A stretch of DNA of 5,297 nt from the IMG/VR virus record IMGVR_UViG_2675903562_000006. The stretch is one strand, 5' to 3'. Shown here piece by piece: positions 1-5,297 of this stretch (its first letter is position 1; each line of letters begins with the position of its first letter). The notes under the pieces were generated by a model, which saw nothing but the letters and a program-made list of their open reading frames with translations, did no database searches and was not told the origin of the DNA. A program made the translations under genes and the position numbers. Source of the stretch: a virus (taxonomy: Duplodnaviria; Heunggongvirae; Uroviricota; Caudoviricetes).

Positions 1-338
1 TGTTTAATAAAACTTTGCCCGCGAAGCAGACGATCAACCGTGCGAAGTGCTTCGTATAATGTGAAATCCTGCCCGAAGTGATTGTCGCCGCAGTTCAATG
101 CAAAAATGCGGTTTCCGGTAAACGGATTGCGTGGGCATTTGTGGATCACGATTCCAGCTTTCTCAATCAGCCAGGCATGCTCGCCGATTTGTTTTACAGC
201 GTGGCCATCCGGTGTTGCGTGCGTCTCGTTCAGGTTATAGCGACTGTTACTACGTGATGCACTGGTAGCGACGTGGTGTACATGGCGTTCTACGCTATTA
301 CGAAATTTGGAGTATGGATTATTAGCGTTTTTTTTCAT
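1..338 (-). CDS. Hypothetical early-operon protein, partial (N-terminus in window, continues past position 1)
   Basis: ATG at 338 is the first start after the in-frame stop of the upstream gene (360-362). The frame stays open to the window edge and is not in the ORF track for that reason. My translation begins MKKNANNPYSKFRNSVERHVHHVATSAS... and contains a His/Cys-bearing segment (HKCPRNPFTG...NCGDNH). Only a weak GAG Shine-Dalgarno about 9 nt upstream. No family recognised. Confidence 0.45.
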   Translation of the reverse strand, partial: MKKNANNPYSKFRNSVERHVHHVATSASRSNSRYNLNETHATPDGHAVKQIGEHAWLIEKAGIVIHKCPRNPFTGNRIFALNCGDNHFGQDFTLYEALRTVDRLLRGQSFIK

Positions 339-359: not shown

Positions 360-563
360 TTAGCTGTTAGCCAAAGCGTCTTTTAACATCGCCACAAGGT
401 TTACTTCAGGCTTTTCCATTTTGGCGCGTTTGGGGCGGATAATAATTCGACCGTCAGCCAACATCTTTTTGCATGTATTAAGAGGGATACCTGTTATCTC
501 TGCATATTTCTGCAGGGATACATAGGGGGCATTCACATTGATATTGATGGTTATACCTGACAT
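360..563 (-). CDS. Small HTH DNA-binding protein, Cox/Apl/AlpA-like excisionase-regulator (67 aa)
   Basis: Strong AGGAGG Shine-Dalgarno 8 nt upstream of the ATG on the minus strand. The segment PYVSLQKYAEITGIPLNTCKKMLADGRIIIR resembles, from memory, the HTH region of P2 Cox (PYQEFAKLIGKSTGAVRRMIDKGKLPVI). Position matches the early operon of a P2/186-type switch. Confidence 0.7.
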   Translation of the reverse strand: MSGITININVNAPYVSLQKYAEITGIPLNTCKKMLADGRIIIRPKRAKMEKPEVNLVAMLKDALANS

Positions 564-579
564 CCCACTAGCCTCCTGA

Positions 580-786
580 TCAGGAAGATTTGTTTTGTTC
601 TTTCTGGGTTAGCTCTAGGCCGCGAAGGAAGATCATGCGCGCCATGTTAGAGGATGAGCGTTGTTCTTTAGCTGCCATTTCATCAATGACGGCTCGCTCC
701 TCGAGGGACAGCCGAAGTGCCAGTCTTGGACCTGTGGCGGTGTTACGCGGAATGCGTGATCTGGTATCGTGAAGAACTTGTTTCAT
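580..786 (-). CDS. Ribbon-helix-helix (CopG/MobC-like) DNA-binding protein, 68 aa; possible Cro-like regulator
   Basis: RLALRLSLEERAVIDEMAAKEQRSSSNMARMIFLRGL fits an RHH pattern (basic beta-strand followed by two helices). Coding-like codon use, while the antisense ORF 590-772 is Arg/Ser-rich junk. An in-frame stop at 802-804 fixes the start at 786. No Shine-Dalgarno, so possibly a leaderless or short-leader mRNA. Confidence 0.6.
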   Translation of the reverse strand: MKQVLHDTRSRIPRNTATGPRLALRLSLEERAVIDEMAAKEQRSSSNMARMIFLRGLELTQKEQNKSS

Positions 787-862: not shown

Positions 863-1267
863 ATGAAAAATGATATTGGTCAGCGGTTGCGTGAGGAAAG
901 GGAAAGATTGGGACTTAGTCAAGTTGCCATGAGCGACATTGGTGGAGTCAAAAAGCTAACTCAGCTTAGATATGAGAAAGGAGATAGCTTTCCTGATGCT
1001 GCGTATTTGGCAGCGCTGTCTCGTTTTGGCCTTGATGTTCAGTATGTTGTGTTGGGAATTCACTCACCTGAAACTTATAACGATGATGAGCAGGAGTTGA
1101 TTACTCGCTTTCGAGCAGCTTCGTTAGATGTGAAAAACGCGGTGATTGGGGCTTTAAAAGGTGCGATCAGTGAAAAGGAAACTCAGCCATCAGGACGTGA
1201 GTTAAATATTTCTGGTGGTAATAACCGTATCGCTGGTCGTGACTATAACGAAACTAAGGGTAGGTGA
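863..1267 (+). CDS. XRE-family (Cro/C1-type) HTH transcriptional regulator, 134 aa; candidate immunity repressor
   Basis: IGQRLREERERLGLSQVAMSDIGGVKKLTQLRYEKGDSFPDAAYLAALSRFGLDVQYVVLG is a typical HTH_3/XRE domain near the N-terminus. AAGG Shine-Dalgarno 8 nt before ATG 863. The ORF track starts at 788, but that adds 25 aa with no Shine-Dalgarno and overlaps the control region. No S24 peptidase domain in the C-terminal tail. Confidence 0.7.
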   Translation: MKNDIGQRLREERERLGLSQVAMSDIGGVKKLTQLRYEKGDSFPDAAYLAALSRFGLDVQYVVLGIHSPETYNDDEQELITRFRAASLDVKNAVIGALKGAISEKETQPSGRELNISGGNNRIAGRDYNETKGR

Positions 1268-1282
1268 TAGTAGGGAGGTGAC

Positions 1283-1933
1283 ATGGCCGTCAACTCAAAC
1301 GGTTCAAACAATCGCGTTGCTGGGCGTGATTTTCACGAAAAGAATATTCAGATAGAGCGATATGATGGTTCTCATACCGTCAATATCGCAATCCCTTCGA
1401 ATAATGATGATGACGATCGCCCTTTGCTTAAGGCTCAGCGTAAGGAGCTAAATAGCTTGGTTGCTGCTATTGCAGAAGCTAGCAATACTGAAGCGTTTAT
1501 TATTTGGCAAAAAGTACATGCGGAGATTGGTGTAGCTGGTATTGATGATATGACAGTAAATCAATATAAAACAGCGGAGAGTTTTCTGCATGCAATGCTT
1601 GAGCGATGTAAAGATCATGATGCCTGTAAGGCTCTTGTAAGTTTATTACTACGTAACAGTGAAGACTGTGGACTTCGACAAAAACTTCTGCGGTATTGCC
1701 ATATCAATTTCGGTACAGGACGTTTAAACGATCTTACTCGTTCTCAGTTACAGTCTGCATTGTCGTGGTTAGAGCAACAATCGGCATCAAGCCACACAGA
1801 GAGTTCGACCTTACCAGAAGTCCGACTTCGTGCTTCAGAATTAATCCGACTTTATCCAAAAGAAATAATATTCTTTATCTGCGTAGGGGTTTTGGTAGGC
1901 GGTGTCATTTCTAGGGCGTTTTTTAATTTGTAA
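1283..1933 (+). CDS. Hypothetical tail-anchored membrane protein (216 aa, single C-terminal TM helix)
   Basis: GGAGG Shine-Dalgarno at 1274-1278. The N-terminal ~190 aa are hydrophilic and the C-terminus IIFFICVGVLVGGVISRAFF is one hydrophobic helix. The N-terminus carries the NNRVAGRDFHE motif also found at the end of the upstream regulator. No catalytic motif recognised. Confidence 0.65.
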   Translation: MAVNSNGSNNRVAGRDFHEKNIQIERYDGSHTVNIAIPSNNDDDDRPLLKAQRKELNSLVAAIAEASNTEAFIIWQKVHAEIGVAGIDDMTVNQYKTAESFLHAMLERCKDHDACKALVSLLLRNSEDCGLRQKLLRYCHINFGTGRLNDLTRSQLQSALSWLEQQSASSHTESSTLPEVRLRASELIRLYPKEIIFFICVGVLVGGVISRAFFNL

Positions 1934-1962: not shown

Positions 1963-2310
1963 ATGAAAGTAAAAAAGGTTCAACTATTAGTTACTTTTTT
2001 ATCTATGTTTTCTTTTTCCGCCGTCGCAATGCCTTTTAAAACTATTGAACGTGAGAGTTTCAATGGGGTATGGCCATTTAATACTGATGAGGTTCAATTA
2101 CAGTGTCTTGATGGTAATCCTTATGTGATGAATTTTGACGATAATAAGTTATATGCACTTACAGGTTTGGCTCGAATAAAAGGTAAAACATTTGGTGCGT
2201 TACCGTTAGATAACAATAATCCATTTTGGCTAGATAATGATGCCGCCCCAGGGTTAAAAAAGAGCCTGGGGGATGTCACTAAGGCTGCATTTGATTTATG
2301 TGATAAGTAA
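1963..2310 (+). CDS. Small secreted/periplasmic protein (115 aa) with Sec signal peptide and two Cys
   Basis: GAGGT Shine-Dalgarno 8 nt upstream. Signal peptide MKVKKVQLLVTFLSMFSFSAVA with an AVA signal-peptidase I site and no lipobox. The precursor has two Cys (residues 48 and 113), compatible with one disulfide. The stop lies 5 nt before the integrase ATG, so the two are probably translationally coupled. Confidence 0.7.
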   Translation: MKVKKVQLLVTFLSMFSFSAVAMPFKTIERESFNGVWPFNTDEVQLQCLDGNPYVMNFDDNKLYALTGLARIKGKTFGALPLDNNNPFWLDNDAAPGLKKSLGDVTKAAFDLCDK

Positions 2311-2315
2311 CTAAA

Positions 2316-3317
2316 ATGTCGGTTCGTAAGATTCCATCAGGTAAATGGCTTTGCGAATGTTATCCCTACGGGGCATCGGGAAAACGCATTCGTAAACAGT
2401 TTGCGACAAAAAGTGAGGCGCTCTCTTATGAGCGCCGTTTAATGAATAGTAGAGTTGGAGACGAGTTTCAAGATGGTTCTGGTCCTCGTCTTTCTGAGTT
2501 GATTGCTCGTTGGTTTGAGATGTACGGTAAAACCTTGTCCTCTGGTGCAGAGCGCAAAGTCAAACTTGAGGCGATTTGTTCCAGGCTGGGAGATCCATTT
2601 GCTTCTCAGTTTGACAAAAATATGTTTGCCACTTATCGGGAAAGAAGGTTATCAGGAGAGTGGAATCCCAAGGGGAAGAAAAAACTTAGTGAAGCAACCG
2701 TTAATCGCGAGCAGTCATATCTACATGCTGTTTTTGCCGAACTGAAGCGCCTTGGGGAGTGGTCTGGTGAAAACCCCCTGACTGGTATTCGCAAGTTTCG
2801 TGAGGAAGAAAAGGAACTGGCGTTTCTGTATGTAGATGAGATTGAACGCCTTCTGATTGCGTGTGATGAGTCACGGAATAAAGATTTGGGGGTTGTTGTC
2901 CGTATTGGGCTTGCGACTGGTGCTCGGTGGAGTGAAGCAGAAGGGTTAAAGCAATCTCAAGTACTGCCCGGTCGAATCACATTTGTTAAAACTAAAGGAA
3001 AGAAGAACCGCACTGTACCGATTTCACCTCAATTGCAGGCTATGCTTCCCAAAAAACGAGGAGCGCTATTTTCACCATGTTATGAGGCTTTTGACGCTGC
3101 AATTAAGAGAGCGAAGATCGAGCTTCCTGATGGGCAATTAACTCATGTGCTACGTCACACGTTTGCCAGTCATTTTATGATGCGGGGCGGAAATATTCTT
3201 GTGTTGCAAAAAATACTGGGGCATAGCGATATAAAAATGACTATGCGTTATGCTCATTTTGCTCCAGGTCATTTAGAGGCTGCTGTTGAATTGAACCCTT
3301 TTGACAATAGAGGGTAA
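2316..3317 (+). CDS. int: Tyrosine site-specific integrase, P2/186 family (333 aa)
   Basis: The C-terminal catalytic region ATGARWSEAEGLK...RITFVKTKGKKNRTVPIS...THVLRHTFASHFMMRGGNILVLQKILGHSDIKMTMRYAHFAP matches, from memory, the P2 Int box I/box II region including the R..H-x-x-R..Y pattern. The N-terminus GKRIRKQFATKSEA resembles P2 Int GKRIRRKFDKKSEA. The gene points at the att fragment, as P2 int does. Confidence 0.9.
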   Translation: MSVRKIPSGKWLCECYPYGASGKRIRKQFATKSEALSYERRLMNSRVGDEFQDGSGPRLSELIARWFEMYGKTLSSGAERKVKLEAICSRLGDPFASQFDKNMFATYRERRLSGEWNPKGKKKLSEATVNREQSYLHAVFAELKRLGEWSGENPLTGIRKFREEEKELAFLYVDEIERLLIACDESRNKDLGVVVRIGLATGARWSEAEGLKQSQVLPGRITFVKTKGKKNRTVPISPQLQAMLPKKRGALFSPCYEAFDAAIKRAKIELPDGQLTHVLRHTFASHFMMRGGNILVLQKILGHSDIKMTMRYAHFAPGHLEAAVELNPFDNRG

Positions 3318-3403: not shown

Positions 3404-3423
3404 ATAAATGGTGGTTGATAGTT

Positions 3424-3478
3424 TTTAAAATCCCTCGGCGTTCGCGCTGTGCGGGTTCAAGTCCCGCTCCGGGTACCA
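3424..3478 (+). other. Attachment-site core: 3' 55 nt of a tRNA-Leu(UAA) gene (anticodon loop to CCA), not an intact tRNA
   Basis: TTTAAAATCCCTCGGCGTTCGCGCTGTGCGGGTTCAAGTCCCGCTCCGGGTACCA contains the anticodon loop with TAA, a long variable arm, the T-arm GCGGG/TTCAAGT/CCCGC, the acceptor 3' strand, discriminator A and CCA. From memory it matches the 3' part of enterobacterial leuZ. No complementary 5' acceptor strand (G/ACCCGGA) exists upstream, so the gene is truncated at the anticodon loop, which is typical of an att core. Confidence 0.7.
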
Positions 3479-3520
3479 TGGGAAAGACAAGAATAATCAA
3501 AGCAATAAGCAGTGTCGTGA

Positions 3521-3543
3521 AACCACCTACGGGTGGTTTTTTT
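3521..3543 (+). terminator. Rho-independent terminator
   Basis: AACCACC-TACG-GGTGGTT is a 7-bp stem with a 4-nt loop, followed by TTTTTTG. It sits 43 nt after the tRNA 3' end and downstream of int. Confidence 0.6.
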
Positions 3544-3578
3544 GTGCCTGAAATTCACGCCCTGTGCATATCCTGTGC

Positions 3579-4460
3579 TCACGGGGTGCAATGAGCCGCA
3601 ATCTCCAGCCTGGCAATGCCGAATCGAACGTGTCGCCTCCAGCATAGAGAACCAGGCCGCTTTGCCTGTTTTCCGGTACTCTTCCGGGAAGGGTGGCCTG
3701 CTGAGCAAGTTGTAATGCTCTGGCCGCCCTTAGTACAAAGTTGCTTAATTCGTGCAATCACCTCATCTCTGTACTTCTGGTGTCCGCGCATAGCCCTTGG
3801 ATGGGCAATTCTGAAACAGATTGTATTACCTGTTTTGAACTCCCACAGCTTCCCCGGAATGACTGAAGAAGTCTCATAACCGCCCAGCTCAGTAAGCACC
3901 TGTTTAATGATGTAGTCTGTTCTCCGGGCTCCGGATGCAAAGATCATGAAATCAGGCTCAAGGTGTTTAATTTGTACCGCCAGCAGCTTCAGCGAGGCTA
4001 ATATGACTTCCTGCACTTCATTTTGAGGGCGATTGAGAGGGGTCAGTCCGTCGTAATCCCACGCCAGTAGATTGGCATACACGATAGCCTGAGGAGGAAT
4101 ATTAAGCTCCCGGGCCAGCCTGAAATGATATTGCGTGAAGCGGCTACGTGATTTGAGGTTGGTGGTGCCATCATTTTGTACCGGAAGATGTTTCCTGTAA
4201 CGATCTACAGCTTCTTCAACCACCTGCCCGATGGTGACGTCAGGCATAAGTCCCAACACCCGTGATATCGTATTCTTACCATTCAGCGTATTCCAGCCTG
4301 CGGTTTCACGTCTAACCAGCATGATTTTTACCGGTGAATGCCAGTATTCTTCAAACGGCACGGGTAAAAAGACGCCTGAGTATTTATCTTCATTCAGGTT
4401 AAATGACTGGGCGTCAACTTCCTGTAATATCCGTTTGTACGCGTCTAATAGCCTTTCCAT
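3579..4460 (-). CDS. Hypothetical protein, 293 aa, divergent from the downstream integrase; function unknown
   Basis: Long ORF with a protein-like N-terminal ~240 aa. The last ~55 aa are low-complexity and Arg/Ser/Cys/Gly-rich, and overlap GC-rich repeat-bearing DNA. Weak, unverified resemblance to uracil-DNA-glycosylase superfamily motifs (KIMLVRRETAG near the N-terminus, AHPRAMRGH near the C-terminus). No Shine-Dalgarno check was made. Confidence 0.55.
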   Translation of the reverse strand: MERLLDAYKRILQEVDAQSFNLNEDKYSGVFLPVPFEEYWHSPVKIMLVRRETAGWNTLNGKNTISRVLGLMPDVTIGQVVEEAVDRYRKHLPVQNDGTTNLKSRSRFTQYHFRLARELNIPPQAIVYANLLAWDYDGLTPLNRPQNEVQEVILASLKLLAVQIKHLEPDFMIFASGARRTDYIIKQVLTELGGYETSSVIPGKLWEFKTGNTICFRIAHPRAMRGHQKYRDEVIARIKQLCTKGGQSITTCSAGHPSRKSTGKQAKRPGSLCWRRHVRFGIARLEIAAHCTP

Positions 4461-4540
4461 TCTTCAATCCTGCCCCGTAATAAAAACACCTTCAGATATA
4501 TATTATTTTCATGATATCAATCAGATATATGAGGATAAAT

Positions 4541-5297
4541 ATGCAAAAATCCTTCCGATTCACCAATTCATCCATCAAAGCCCTTCCGGCAAACACAGAT
4601 ACCCGATCTACAGAGCTTGAGGTATCCGATACTGAGGTCATTGGCCTCAAATGCCTCTCAGGTCGAACGGGTAACAAACGTTTCCTCCTGCGCTACACAT
4701 TCCACGGTACCAAAAAAAGTATCAGTATTGGCAGATTCCCTGAAATTGATGTGGGGACAGCCCGTCAGATAGCTCGTCGTCACAAGGAGGCGATTGCACT
4801 GGGAAATGACCCTAAGGCAGAACGCGATAATTATCGTGCTATGCCAACGCTTAGTGAGTTTTTTCACCAGACCTATGTTCCGTTCATCAAACGCCATAAA
4901 AAGTCCTGGGATAAGGATGTTCAGCGTTTCACGCAATACATTGAACCTTGTCTGGGGAAGATACGTTACTGTGACCTTCGGGCCCGGGAAATCCAGCAGG
5001 TGCTTTTCGACATGCTTGAGGGTCGTATTCACGGGCAGCAATATGCGCCGTCTACCTGTAACAGAGCCCTTGCTATTCTGAAAACGATGGGGCGTTATGC
5101 GTTGCGACAGGATGTGCTGGAAAAGAATGAAGCCGATAAGATCCCTTTACTGAAAGAGAATAATCAGCGGACGCGCTTTTTTGATGCTGATGAGATCAGG
5201 TGTCAACGCCAAGATTATTGGCCGTTTTTCGCCATTTTTAATGTCCGCTATTGGTCATTAATGTTGTCCGCTTTCCGCCATTTCATCATCACTGATT
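4541..5297 (+). CDS. int: Tyrosine integrase of the P4/DUF4102 (arm-binding N-domain) type, 3'-truncated by the window end
   Basis: GAGGA Shine-Dalgarno before ATG 4541. My translation MQKSFRFTNSSIKALPANTDTRSTELEVSDTEVIGLKCLSGRTGNKRFLLRYTFHGTKKSISIGRFPEIDVGTARQIARRHKEAIALGNDPKAERD has the characteristic N-terminal layout of P4-like and genomic-island integrases. The frame is open to position 5297, which is why it is missing from the ORF track. Confidence 0.8.
   Translation, partial: MQKSFRFTNSSIKALPANTDTRSTELEVSDTEVIGLKCLSGRTGNKRFLLRYTFHGTKKSISIGRFPEIDVGTARQIARRHKEAIALGNDPKAERDNYRAMPTLSEFFHQTYVPFIKRHKKSWDKDVQRFTQYIEPCLGKIRYCDLRAREIQQVLFDMLEGRIHGQQYAPSTCNRALAILKTMGRYALRQDVLEKNEADKIPLLKENNQRTRFFDADEIRCQRQDYWPFFAIFNVRYWSLMLSAFRHFIITD

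What the first reader, a model, noticed from the sequence alone, without database searches (positions are those of the whole stretch)
1196..1339. Conserved 18-aa motif duplicated across a gene boundary: C-terminus of the HTH regulator and N-terminus of the membrane protein
The regulator ends ...RELNISGGNNRIAGRDYNETKGR and the next protein begins MAVNSNGSNNRVAGRDFHE. That is about 10 identities in 18 residues around a core NNR[IV]AGRD[YF]. The nucleotides differ at many synonymous positions, so this is an old duplication kept at the protein level, not a recent repeat. The two ORFs share a frame, separated only by TGA-TAG-TAG (1265-1273), a GGAGG Shine-Dalgarno and the ATG. Both genes also carry an acidic patch followed by a helix (NDDEQELITRFRAASL and NDDDDRPLLKAQRKEL). 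This could be a shared partner-binding or degron peptide, with the regulator tail mimicking the membrane protein N-terminus, or it could mark gene fission from one ancestral protein.
Basis: seen in the sequence. Interest (0 to 1): 0.65.

Follow-up and report, generated by a model that had tools for sequence, protein, structure and literature searches.

The report
Matching peptide links prophage repressor, membrane protein
A prophage's master repressor ends in a short peptide that is repeated at the start of the membrane protein encoded next to it. The two copies change together across many phages, which points to an undescribed physical link between the lysogeny switch and the cell membrane.

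Summary
Regulator residues 114-130 (LNISGGNNRIAGRDYNE) match residues 3-19 of the next protein (VNSNGSNNRVAGRDFHE): 10/17 identical, BLASTP E=2e-5, six of the ten identities in different codons.

The window is the lysogeny module of a P2-like prophage at a tRNA-Leu gene, present in 521 of 5426 complete E. coli genomes. The regulator is the immunity repressor by position. The downstream protein is tail-anchored, with a helical Flk_N-like cytoplasmic domain.

Both motifs are among the best-conserved parts of their families, and both lie in termini that AlphaFold leaves disordered. Related repressors in P2-like and BcepMu-like prophages carry very different tails, and the downstream N-terminus changes with them. 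Across 21 tail classes, cognate pairs outscore every one of 100,000 permutations. The motif also sits on unrelated downstream proteins. It is rich in N, G, Q and V and poor in L, P and K, like bacterial amyloid-signalling motif pairs.

No fused ORFs were found. Three in-frame stops and variable gene spacing argue against readthrough or recent fission.

Best reading: cognate beta-type interaction peptides tie the repressor to a membrane partner. Binding, and its effect on the switch, are inferred. I found no paper describing this.

The parts
863..1267 (+). Immunity-repressor-type XRE HTH regulator, 134 aa. HTH domain at res 1-65, two helices at 74-105, disordered tail at 105-134.
   Evidence: ORF and translation. 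Pfam HTH_31/HTH_3 and PHROG 'transcriptional regulator/repressor'. The profile matches the P22 C2 N-terminal domain. AF2 model. It is divergent from Arc-like and Cox-like genes and points toward int, as in P2-like phages.
1175..1264 (+). Disordered C-terminal tail of the repressor (res 105-134).
   Evidence: pLDDT <50 over 105-134 in an AF2 model built from 37 homologues.
1202..1252 (+). Tail motif LNISGGNNRIAGRDYNE (res 114-130). Family consensus: [IV]NV[ST]GxG[NQH]R[VI]AGRD[YF][NH]E, followed by KK.
   Evidence: BLASTP. Conserved in homologues from Yersinia, Serratia, Klebsiella, Salmonella, Pectobacterium, Dickeya and Erwinia. R122 and E130 are invariant; G118, A124, G125, R126 and D127 are at least 90% conserved.
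1265..1273 (+). Three consecutive in-frame stop codons, TGA TAG TAG.
   Evidence: Sequence and translation.
1274..1278 (+). GGAGG Shine-Dalgarno for the downstream gene, 4 nt before the ATG.
   Evidence: Sequence. No promoter-like or terminator-like site was predicted between the two genes on the + strand.
1283..1933 (+). Tail-anchored inner-membrane protein, 216 aa, of the prophage Flk_N family.
   Evidence: phrog_5825 E=4e-103. Precomputed PF27202 Flk_N on homologues. NCBIfam Flk model hits res 37-166 at 58 bits, against a cutoff of 353. AF2 model.
1289..1339 (+). N-terminal motif VNSNGSNNRVAGRDFHE (res 3-19). Family consensus: VNSxGxxNRx[AS]GRD[FY]xE.
   Evidence: BLASTP. Present in essentially all 120 listed homologues. 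S5, G7, N10, R11, D16 and E19 are invariant in a 30-sequence alignment. It lies in a region with pLDDT <50.
1415..1792 (+). Cytoplasmic helical Flk_N-like domain (res ~45-170).
   Evidence: AF2 pLDDT ~90-95. NCBIfam Flk hit at 37-166. The HMMER family search places the domain 15-60 residues from the N-terminus in nearly all members.
1832..1927 (+). C-terminal transmembrane helix (tail anchor, res ~184-215).
   Evidence: AF2 helix 184-215. Kyte-Doolittle window 187-216.
360..786 (-). Divergent lytic-side switch genes: Arc-like RHH (580-786) and Cox-like excisionase/repressor (360-563).
   Evidence: phrog_3431 and phrog_575. Annotation of phage 520873. Promoter-like site 852-824 on the - strand.
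1963..3317 (+). Rest of the lysogenic operon: DUF2511 secreted cargo protein (1963-2310) and tyrosine integrase (2316-3317).
   Evidence: Pfam DUF2511, Int_N and Phage_integrase. The gene between the partner and int differs among related loci.
3424..3478 (+). 3' part of a tRNA-Leu gene: the attachment-site copy at the prophage end.
   Evidence: This stretch matches an annotated tRNA-Leu in E. coli genomes. No complete tRNA is present in the window.

Best explanation
The two peptides are a cognate pair of interaction motifs. The prophage's immunity repressor (HTH domain, two helices, then a disordered C-terminal tail) and the protein made from the next cistron of the same lysogenic operon (disordered N-terminal peptide, helical Flk_N-like cytoplasmic domain, C-terminal membrane anchor) carry the same 17-29-residue motif, rich in N, G, Q and V.

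I propose that the two disordered termini pair with each other by beta-strand (cross-beta-like or beta-zipper) association. This would hold part of the repressor pool on a membrane-anchored partner and couple the lysis/lysogeny switch to something at the inner membrane, much as a membrane anti-sigma factor holds its sigma factor. The alternative direction is that the repressor tail masks the partner. Because like pairs with like, each phage lineage can change the motif on both genes and stay insulated from other prophages in the same cell.

Shown: the motif is real, strongly conserved, terminal in both proteins, co-varying, attached to different partner types, and not a fusion remnant.
Inferred: direct binding, its beta-type geometry, and its regulatory outcome.
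For: 1. Conservation. The motif is among the most conserved segments of both families.

2. Linkage. In 10 of 10 genome loci from other genera, the Flk_N protein directly follows a repressor that has the tail.

3. Co-variation. Distant repressor homologues in BcepMu-like transposable prophages have different tails, and the downstream N-terminus matches each one:
- QIFNGDISGQFAGNQIIN / QEFNGTAQGQFSSRDIIN
- NTIRGEGQIAGGNIY / NTAEQIAGRDIY
- QTFHGSVGQSVAGNITN / QDFHGGVGQVAGGDITN
- IGQNFESEINGGQFSTGTIHNHY / EQRFEKDIHGGQFGNIHNHY
Of 61 non-redundant in-family pairs, 55 score SW>=30, against 3.6% of composition-preserving shuffles. Over 21 tail classes the cognate sum is 836, against 549 +/- 38 for permuted pairings; 0 of 100,000 permutations reach it.

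4. Modularity. The same motif heads unrelated downstream proteins: Flk_N tail-anchored proteins, 118-142-aa CxxC proteins with TM segments, 151-152-aa multi-TM proteins, 250-340-aa proteins with a TM plus a periplasmic Cys domain, and a soluble protein in KS10.

5. Disorder. Both motifs lie in termini with pLDDT <50, next to confidently folded domains. This is typical of peptides that fold on binding.

6. Gene organisation. Spacing of -4 to +34 nt, often overlapping ATGA/GTGA, with no internal promoter or terminator predicted here. This implies co-expression.

7. Composition. N 3.3x, G 2.2x, Q 1.8x, V 1.4x; L 0.16x, P 0.11x, K 0.46x. This is the bias reported for bacterial amyloid-signalling motif pairs, which have the same C-terminus/N-terminus adjacent-gene geometry.

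8. Motif classes differ within one host genus: Pectobacterium P0159 vs P0171. This argues for phage-specific cognate recognition rather than a conserved host factor.

9. Flk_N-like domains also occur fused to Rha and AntA antirepressor-type N-terminal domains, and phrog_245 'anti-repressor Ant' gives a weak hit.
Against: - There is no experimental or structural evidence of binding.
- Co-variation of the 'same residue on both sides' kind would also arise if both peptides bind one symmetric or shared third partner.
- Two repressors carry a typical tail but no matching downstream protein. One of them, phage Komp_PAO1_1, has no match anywhere in its genome. So the tail has some function of its own.
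- A second pseudo-repeat in the partner, which would strengthen the HET-s analogy, is not statistically supported: z>=2 in 2 of 51.
- Conserved adjacent R-D residues would repel in a parallel in-register stack.
- The identity of the regulator as the immunity repressor rests on gene position and on database or paper annotations, not on a test.
Confidence: 0.6

Rival explanations
1. Both peptides bind the same third factor, such as a phage-encoded antirepressor, an adaptor or a protease. The membrane protein would then act as a decoy or competitor for whatever recognises the repressor tail, and would not bind the repressor itself.
For: Matching (identity-type) co-variation is what a shared receptor would produce. 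Orphan tails without a partner show that the tail works with something else as well. Flk_N-like domains are linked to antirepressor-type proteins.
Against: Motif classes differ radically within one host genus, so the factor cannot be a conserved host protein. No candidate co-varying third gene was seen in the conserved neighbourhoods. One receptor would have to read a C-terminal and an N-terminal peptide in the same way.
Confidence: 0.18
2. Amyloid-like (prion-like) templating, as in HET-s/NWD2 and bacterial BASS pairs. Assembly of one protein's motif into a cross-beta nucleus converts the other's, switching the repressor off or a membrane effector on.
For: The gene-pair geometry, motif length range (9-29 aa, median 18), composition bias and pair specificity match those reported for BASS. 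The termini are disordered. Several partners have long G/N/V-rich N-terminal regions, for example BcepMu gp18.
Against: There is no NLR and no Bell/HeLo-type effector, and the hosts are unicellular proteobacteria (one search gives the BASS distribution). The E. coli motif is short (17 aa). Pseudo-repeats are not supported. The repressor tail ends in a basic cluster straight after the motif. No fibril data exist.
Confidence: 0.15
3. Each motif is only a self-association element for its own protein: repressor oligomerisation in one case, partner oligomerisation in the other. The similarity would reflect repeated local duplication of a handy oligomerisation peptide, with no cross-talk.
For: Orphan tails exist. 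Repressors commonly need C-terminal oligomerisation elements (own knowledge).
Against: Sustained matching across 21 classes and across unrelated partner families would need many independent duplications, always onto the adjacent gene. Codon-level divergence shows the copies are old yet still matched. Two identical self-associating peptides in one cytoplasm would be expected to co-assemble anyway.
Confidence: 0.05
4. The pair is a remnant of gene fission, or a site of stop-codon readthrough that makes a repressor-membrane fusion protein.
For: The two ORFs share a frame in this window.
Against: There are three consecutive stops. Spacing and frame vary in relatives: -4, 0, 2, 3, 9, 15 and so on. 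No fused ORF appears in about 235 loci or among 141 family representatives from 1.84 billion proteins. A fission would not leave the same peptide on both sides of the break.
Confidence: 0.01
5. A chance match between two low-complexity G/N-rich termini.
For: The motif is short and compositionally biased.
Against: BLASTP E=2e-5. It is the unique pair in the phage genome. It is conserved in both families. Cognate pairs exceed all 100,000 permutations and 96% of composition-preserving shuffles.
Confidence: 0.01

Closest known systems
Bacterial amyloid signalling sequence (BASS) gene pairs and fungal HET-s/NWD2-type amyloid signalling motifs (Dyrka et al., bioRxiv 10.1101/2020.01.06.895854)
   Same: A short motif is shared between the C-terminus of one protein and the N-terminus of the product of the adjacent collinear gene. 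The genes are closely spaced or overlapping. The composition is N/G/Q/V-rich and L/P/K-poor. Motif families are pair-specific. The motif is attached to different effector domains.
   Different: The partners are a phage HTH repressor and a membrane-anchored Flk_N or other protein, not an NLR and a Bell/HeLo effector. The hosts are unicellular gamma- and beta-proteobacteria and their prophages. The motif is often shorter (median 18 aa against about 25). Amyloid formation is untested.
Membrane anti-sigma factor / ECF sigma factor pairs such as RseA/sigma-E (own knowledge)
   Same: The regulator gene is followed by a co-transcribed, often overlapping gene for a single-pass membrane protein whose N-terminus faces the cytoplasm. 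Some partners have a periplasmic domain.
   Different: There is no homology. The proposed contact is a pair of matching disordered peptides, not an anti-sigma domain wrapping a folded sigma factor. Most partners are tail-anchored with no periplasmic part.
Flk, the chromosomal tail-anchored flagellar export regulator of Salmonella and E. coli
   Same: It shares the helical Flk_N domain and the C-terminal tail anchor.
   Different: Flk proper is about 330 aa, has two Flk_N-like stretches and a Pro/Gly-rich N-terminus (MQP.SGPG...), and lacks the motif. The window protein scores 58 bits against the Flk equivalog cutoff of 353. It is prophage-borne and paired with a repressor.
Phage antirepressors (P22 Ant, AntA/Rha-type proteins; Qtip and RstC, which aggregate or sequester repressors; the last two from own knowledge)
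   Same: These are small phage proteins that act on the immunity repressor through protein-protein contact. Flk_N-like domains occur fused to Rha and AntA domains.
   Different: Known antirepressors are soluble, are usually expressed from a separate regulated promoter, and do not copy a peptide of the repressor. Here the partner is membrane-anchored and co-expressed with the repressor in the lysogen.
Type II toxin-antitoxin pairs with an XRE-HTH antitoxin (HigA, MqsA)
   Same: An XRE HTH gene lies upstream of a tightly coupled second gene. There are weak HTH-level hits to HigA and MqsA.
   Different: The hits cover only the generic HTH. No toxin family or defence-system model matches the partner. 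The regulator sits in the immunity-repressor position of the prophage switch.

Membership tests
BASS / amyloid signalling motif gene pair | The same motif sits at the C-terminus of one protein and the N-terminus of the adjacent, collinear gene product. | tested here: met
   Window. Relatives: 55 of 61 pairs, with gaps mostly -4 to +34 nt. Definition.
BASS / amyloid signalling motif gene pair | About 25 aa, enriched in Q, N, G, V, I and depleted in K, P, L. | tested here: met
   N 3.3x, G 2.2x, Q 1.8x, V 1.4x, I 1.0x; L 0.16x, P 0.11x, K 0.46x. Aligned length has median 18 and range 9-29, so it is somewhat shorter than BASS, and I is not enriched.
BASS / amyloid signalling motif gene pair | One partner is an NLR-like protein (NACHT or NB-ARC plus repeats). 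| tested here: not met
   The partners are a 134-aa XRE HTH protein and a 216-aa Flk_N membrane protein. There are no NACHT or NB-ARC hits.
BASS / amyloid signalling motif gene pair | The other partner carries a Bell/HeLo-type or other cell-death effector domain. | tested here: not met
   No such Pfam or PADLOC hit. The partner is membrane-anchored, but its function is unknown.
BASS / amyloid signalling motif gene pair | The motif forms amyloid fibrils and propagates as a prion. | not testable with these tools
   This needs peptide fibrillation and in vivo aggregation assays. AF2 monomers show only disorder.
P2-type prophage immunity repressor (C/CI position) | The gene lies between int and the divergent cox-type gene, transcribed toward int, in a P2-like prophage. 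| tested here: met
   Gene order is Cox-like, Arc-like (-) | HTH, partner, cargo, int (+), then the tRNA-Leu att. The DNA is 97.7% identical to a Peduoviridae phage.
P2-type prophage immunity repressor (C/CI position) | It represses the early lytic promoter and confers immunity. | not testable with these tools
   Annotation only: 'repressor' for homologues KS5 gp11, KS10 gp13 and BcepMu gp17.
Flk (flagella biosynthesis regulator) | Flk_N domain plus C-terminal tail anchor. | tested here: met
   Precomputed PF27202 on homologues. NCBIfam Flk model aligns to res 37-166. TM helix 184-215.
Flk (flagella biosynthesis regulator) | Full-length equivalence to chromosomal Flk: about 330 aa, two Flk_N-like stretches, score above the NCBIfam cutoff. 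| tested here: not met
   58 bits against a cutoff of 353. The protein is 216 aa with one domain. Flk-like representatives have two stretches and no motif.
Type II toxin-antitoxin system | A recognisable toxin family next to the HTH antitoxin. | tested here: not met
   There is no PADLOC or Pfam toxin hit for the partner. Only generic HTH similarity to HigA and MqsA was found.
Split or readthrough fusion gene | Fused single-ORF homologues exist, or the frame and a leaky stop are conserved. | tested here: not met
   No fused ORFs. Triple stop. The gap varies, with gap mod 3 giving 33/7/21.

The most novel reading that the evidence does not exclude
Prophages of unicellular proteobacteria use a BASS-like, prion-type templating peptide pair. 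Controlled cross-beta co-assembly between the immunity repressor's tail and a membrane-anchored partner would act as an all-or-none switch, either inactivating the repressor (induction) or activating a membrane effector (exclusion or abortive infection). That would extend amyloid signalling from NLR immunity in multicellular microbes to the phage lysis/lysogeny decision.
Probability: 0.15. Interest if true: 0.9.

Novelty: new variant of a known kind. Interest (0 to 1): 0.78.

Why it matters
If the peptides do bind each other, this is an unrecognised layer of control on the lysogeny switch. It is present in two unrelated temperate-phage lineages: P2-like Peduoviridae and BcepMu-like transposable phages. 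It occurs in Escherichia, Klebsiella, Salmonella, Yersinia, Pectobacterium, Gilliamella, Pseudomonas and Burkholderia, and in about 10% of complete E. coli genomes.

It would give a simple, swappable peptide code that links a transcription factor to a membrane protein. It would also be the first case of the paired terminal motif architecture outside NLR/effector immunity pairs. The system is directly testable in cultivable phages that already have genomes and hosts: BcepMu gp17/gp18, KS5 gp11/gp12, KS10 gp13/gp12, and E. coli lysogens.

None of the papers I found or read describes it. The phage papers call the genes only 'repressor' and 'membrane protein' or 'hypothetical protein'.

Tried and rejected
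- A single-protein scan of genome contigs for the partner found nothing. An alignment-based scan then gave 11 loci.
No complex model could therefore be made, and both AF2 jobs went to monomers.
- The idea that the partner carries two pseudo-repeats of the motif, as HET-s does, looked plausible by eye in a subfamily (AAGRDFHE...LIGRDVLNI). It failed a shuffle test: z>=2 in 2 of 51.
- The acidic-patch/helix similarity was not detected and is not conserved as such.
- Fission or readthrough was rejected.
- A third motif-bearing ORF was sought in the phage genome. None exists in phage 520873, and no relocated partner exists in Komp_PAO1_1.
- Defence-system models (PADLOC) gave no hit for the partner, DUF2511 or the 293-aa ORF.
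- Rfam found no RNA family in the window. A partial-tRNA search by covariance model also failed; the tRNA-Leu identity came from BLAST against annotated genomes.
- Literature searches for amyloid signalling with prophage or repressor, Flk with prophage, membrane-anchored antirepressors, Xuanwuvirus/P88, the two WP accessions, and BcepMu gp17/gp18 found nothing that describes the motif pair.
Full report
WHAT IS IN THE WINDOW

The 5.3-kb window is the left end of a P2-like prophage inserted at a tRNA-Leu gene of E. coli. Bases 780-2320 are 97.7% identical to Escherichia phage 520873 (Peduoviridae, Xuanwuvirus). They occur, mostly at 99% identity or more, in 521 of 5426 complete E. coli genomes.

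The gene order is:
- Cox-like gene (360-563, minus strand) and Arc-like gene (580-786, minus strand);
- divergently, an XRE-HTH regulator (863-1267);
- a 216-aa membrane protein (1283-1933);
- a DUF2511 secreted protein (1963-2310);
- a tyrosine integrase (2316-3317);
- the 3' part of tRNA-Leu, which is the att copy (about 3424-3478).

By position the regulator is the immunity repressor, the P2 C / 186 CI slot. This is an inference from synteny and from annotations of homologues, not a test.

CHECKING THE OBSERVATION

Regulator residues 114-130 (LNISGGNNRIAGRDYNE, nt 1202-1252) align without gaps to residues 3-19 of the next protein (VNSNGSNNRVAGRDFHE, nt 1289-1339). There are 10/17 identities and 15/17 positives, with BLASTP E=2e-5 for the single comparison.

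Only 30 of 51 bases match, and six of the ten identical residues use different codons. The stops TGA-TAG-TAG (1265-1273), GGAGG (1274-1278) and the shared frame are as stated. In a six-frame scan of the whole related phage genome the motif occurs only at these two places, scoring 62 against a next best of 33.

BLASTP does not find it. The two segments belong to different conserved contexts, a repressor-family helix and the first helix of the Flk_N-like domain.

THE TWO PROTEINS

AlphaFold2 with 37 homologues models the regulator as an HTH domain (1-65) plus two helices (74-105). The tail (105-134) stays at pLDDT <50. The HTH profile is closest to the P22 C2 N-terminal domain.

With 30 homologues, the partner has a disordered N-terminus (1-40, pLDDT <50), a confident helical domain (about 45-170, pLDDT 90-95) and a C-terminal transmembrane helix (184-215). 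It is therefore a tail-anchored protein whose bulk, including the motif, should face the cytoplasm. That topology is inferred from the tail-anchor architecture.

The helical domain is the Flk_N domain. This rests on precomputed PF27202 on homologues and on the NCBIfam Flk model, which aligns to residues 37-166 at 58 bits against an equivalog cutoff of 353. The protein is not Flk itself. Chromosomal Flk-like representatives are about 330 aa, have two such stretches and a Pro/Gly-rich N-terminus, and lack the motif.

CONSERVATION

Essentially all 120 listed homologues of the partner, from Escherichia, Klebsiella, Serratia, Enterobacter, Erwinia, Citrobacter and others, begin with VNSxGxxNRx[AS]GRD[FY]xE. 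S5, G7, N10, R11, D16 and E19 are invariant in a 30-sequence alignment.

Repressor homologues from Yersinia, Serratia, Klebsiella, Salmonella, Pectobacterium, Dickeya and Erwinia end with [IV]NV[ST]GxG[NQH]R[VI]AGRD[YF][NH]ExKK. R122 and E130 are invariant, and G118, A124, G125, R126 and D127 are at least 90% conserved. In 10 of 10 loci fetched from other genera, the Flk_N gene follows such a repressor by a few bases. The cargo gene between it and int varies.

THE KEY RESULT: CO-VARIATION

More distant repressor homologues have the same HTH and helices but different tails. They lie in BcepMu-like transposable prophages, with rve transposase, AAA_22, holin and SLT genes. There the next gene again encodes a membrane protein, and its N-terminus matches that particular tail.

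I collected about 235 loci from viral and metagenomic contigs. These gave 98 non-redundant regulator/downstream pairs, 61 of them in-family. Examples (repressor tail / downstream N-terminus):
- QIFNGDISGQFAGNQIIN / QEFNGTAQGQFSSRDIIN
- NTIRGEGQIAGGNIY / NTAEQIAGRDIY
- QTFHGSVGQSVAGNITNKSGVTFNVG / QDFHGGVGQVAGGDITNFGVNISLV
- IGQNFESEINGGQFSTGTIHNHY / EQRFEKDIHGGQFGNIHNHY
- KILIEGNIGQQNNTNQGGVFVVNM / KILIKGDTGAAINVENGGKVNVSI
- QVIHGNVMGNVIKGNVTV / QEIKGDVGNVVSGSVNIT

Of the 61 pairs, 55 score SW>=30, against 3.6% of composition-preserving shuffles. Taking one representative for each of 21 tail classes, the summed cognate score is 836, against 549 +/- 38 for permuted pairings. None of 100,000 permutations reaches it.

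If the two copies had simply diverged from one ancient duplication, cognate pairs would be no more alike than non-cognate ones. The excess therefore means co-evolution or repeated re-matching. The codon divergence in the window argues against recent gene conversion here.

MODULARITY

The motif travels with different downstream proteins:
- Flk_N tail-anchored proteins of 185-230 aa;
- 118-142-aa proteins with CxxC pairs and TM segments (L064, L120, L121);
- 151-152-aa multi-TM proteins (L016, L055);
- 250-340-aa proteins with a mid-chain TM and a small Cys-containing periplasmic domain (BcepMu gp18, KS5 gp12, L069, L085-L088, L095);
- an apparently soluble Flk_N-like protein (KS10 gp12).

Most partners have at least one predicted TM segment. 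Three published Burkholderia phages carry the pair:
- BcepMu gp17/gp18: QEQVFHGSVGQAVKVEG / KQEFNKPVGQAIQAGE
- KS5 gp11/gp12: RQNFEGASIGQQVTGDV / NQKFDGEIGQVAGGDV
- KS10 gp13/gp12: ASGSGITQVGS / ASGFGIIQVAG

Their papers annotate the genes only as repressor and membrane or hypothetical protein.

WHAT IT IS NOT

It is not a fission remnant or a readthrough site.
- No ORF joining the HTH to a long downstream part exists in the loci.
- A profile search of 1.84 billion representative proteins found 141 family members. In these the Flk_N domain starts 15-60 residues from the N-terminus, and none has an N-terminal HTH. The only longer N-terminal fusions are to Rha and AntA domains.
- The window has three consecutive stops, and the spacing in relatives is -4, 0, 2, 3, 9, 15 and so on, with no fixed frame.

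It is not a chance match. It matches no defence-system model and no RNA family.

HOW IT MOST LIKELY WORKS

The facts to explain are these. The two peptides are disordered and terminal. They are strongly conserved. They are co-expressed from adjacent, often overlapping cistrons; no internal promoter or terminator is predicted here. They match in a lineage-specific way, and they can be moved between partner scaffolds.

The simplest account is that they are cognate interaction modules and that like pairs with like. I therefore propose that the repressor tail and the partner N-terminus associate by beta-strand pairing, placing repressor molecules on a membrane-anchored protein.

The motif composition is N 3.3x, G 2.2x, Q 1.8x and V 1.4x, with L 0.16x, P 0.11x and K 0.46x. 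This, together with the C-terminus/N-terminus adjacent-gene geometry, is what Dyrka et al. describe for bacterial amyloid-signalling (BASS) pairs.

Whether the contact is a simple 1:1 or 2:2 beta zipper or a templated cross-beta assembly cannot be decided here. A two-fold antiparallel pairing around the conserved R-D would make R-D salt bridges, which is my own inference. Two points weigh against amyloid templating: the conserved adjacent R-D would be unfavourable in a parallel in-register stack, and the putative second repeat is not statistically supported.

The functional direction is also inferred. The architecture resembles a membrane anti-sigma factor and its sigma factor (own knowledge). 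Flk_N-like domains are fused to antirepressor-type Rha and AntA modules. Some partners have periplasmic domains. All of this favours a membrane-anchored modulator, or sequestration, of the repressor.

The reverse, a repressor tail masking a membrane effector, is equally compatible with the sequence data. Two repressors with a typical tail but no matching partner show that the tail also has a role of its own. Self-association of the repressor is the obvious candidate.

RIVALS

A shared third binding factor is the main alternative. It would explain matching motifs and orphan tails. However, it needs a co-varying phage factor that I did not see in the conserved neighbourhoods, and it cannot be a conserved host protein, because motif classes differ within one genus. 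Amyloid-type templating is a more specific and more novel version of the main hypothesis. Independent self-association, fission or readthrough, and chance are unlikely for the reasons given above.

COMPARISON WITH WHAT IS KNOWN, AND NOVELTY

The pair works like, and looks like, a BASS/HET-s-type motif pair. It fails two defining membership features, having no NLR and no Bell/HeLo effector, so it should not be filed as a BASS system. The partner shares a domain with Flk but is not Flk. The regulator is an XRE repressor in the P2 C position.

Searches of the paper library returned nothing on this motif pair. I searched for amyloid signalling with prophage or repressor, Flk with prophage, membrane-anchored antirepressors, the phage genus, the protein accessions, and BcepMu gp17/gp18. 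A 2026 review of amyloid signalling contains no mention of phages (no occurrences of 'phage'). Failing to find a paper in this library does not prove the pair is new.

I rate it a new variant of a known kind (paired terminal interaction motifs in adjacent genes) in a new biological setting, the phage lysogeny switch and the inner membrane.

VERDICT

- Observation: confirmed.
- Interpretation: partly supported. The matched-peptide idea holds; fission, readthrough and the acidic-patch similarity do not.
- Confidence that the two motifs are a functional cognate pair: about 0.8-0.85.
- Confidence that they bind each other directly: about 0.6.
- Confidence that this is amyloid-like templating: about 0.15.
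- Interest: 0.78.

Noticed in passing
window 3418-3560: The prophage ends at the 3' part of a tRNA-Leu gene. The stretch matches annotated tRNA-Leu genes in almost all E. coli genomes, yet ARAGORN and Rfam find no complete tRNA here. It is followed by a hairpin plus T-run at about 3519-3548.
   Followed up: partly
window 3579-5297 (L001 8944-10421): A second integrative-element remnant lies in tandem at the same tRNA site. It has a 293-aa ORF (3579-4460, minus strand) that matches only phrog_29550 and no Pfam or PADLOC model. It also has the N-terminal part of a P4-type integrase (from 4541), which in the matching genome is truncated by an IS21-family element (ISEc62).
   Followed up: no
window 1963-2310; loci L003-L012: The slot between the membrane partner and int holds variable cargo. 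Here it is a DUF2511 protein with a signal peptide. Elsewhere it holds unrelated 96-aa, 244-aa, 288-aa and 291-aa proteins. This is a moron or accessory hotspot inside the lysogenic operon.
   Followed up: partly
BcepMu gp18 (L240 2863-3645), KS5 gp12 (L241 2962-3708), L069, L085-L088, L095: The longer partner proteins have a mid-chain TM helix followed by a conserved periplasmic segment of about 45 aa with two Cys residues (pattern C.[FY].G..[YF][SA].G..I.........C). It matches no Pfam or NCBIfam model and could be a sensor domain.
   Followed up: no
[not shown]
   Followed up: no
P0347, P0377 (family representatives): Flk_N-like domains occur as C-terminal parts of proteins whose N-termini are Phage_pRha or AntA antirepressor-type domains. 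One also hits ORF6C.
   Followed up: partly
L064, L120, L121: Some partners that carry the matching N-terminal motif are small proteins with two CxxC pairs (zinc-ribbon-like) ahead of TM segments, instead of a Flk_N domain.
   Followed up: no
regulator C-termini in all classes (window 1253-1264: TKGR): Directly after the motif, nearly every repressor ends in a short basic cluster (KK, KKNK, RRRKTK, KRKE, GKGKKRK). Its role is unknown. It could act as a charged cap on a beta-prone peptide or as a contact for membrane or DNA.
   Followed up: no
L238 (GCA_003702345.1 contig, 2070-3175): One Flk_N partner has an extra N-terminal helical extension, and its upstream HTH regulator has a helical C-terminus instead of a G/N-rich one. 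This may be a different kind of pairing in the same gene arrangement.
   Followed up: no
Escherichia phage 520873, NC_049344.1 2459-3065: In the only closely related sequenced phage isolate, the partner gene is broken into three tblastn pieces and is left unannotated, while the repressor is intact.
   Followed up: no
L242/L243 (Pseudomonas phage Komp_PAO1_1) and L114: These repressors have a typical tail (SQSFHGPVGQAAQGDIKNGPGFVLNV) but no matching partner. In Komp_PAO1_1 the next gene encodes a secreted protein, and no motif copy exists anywhere in the 40-kb genome.
   Followed up: yes
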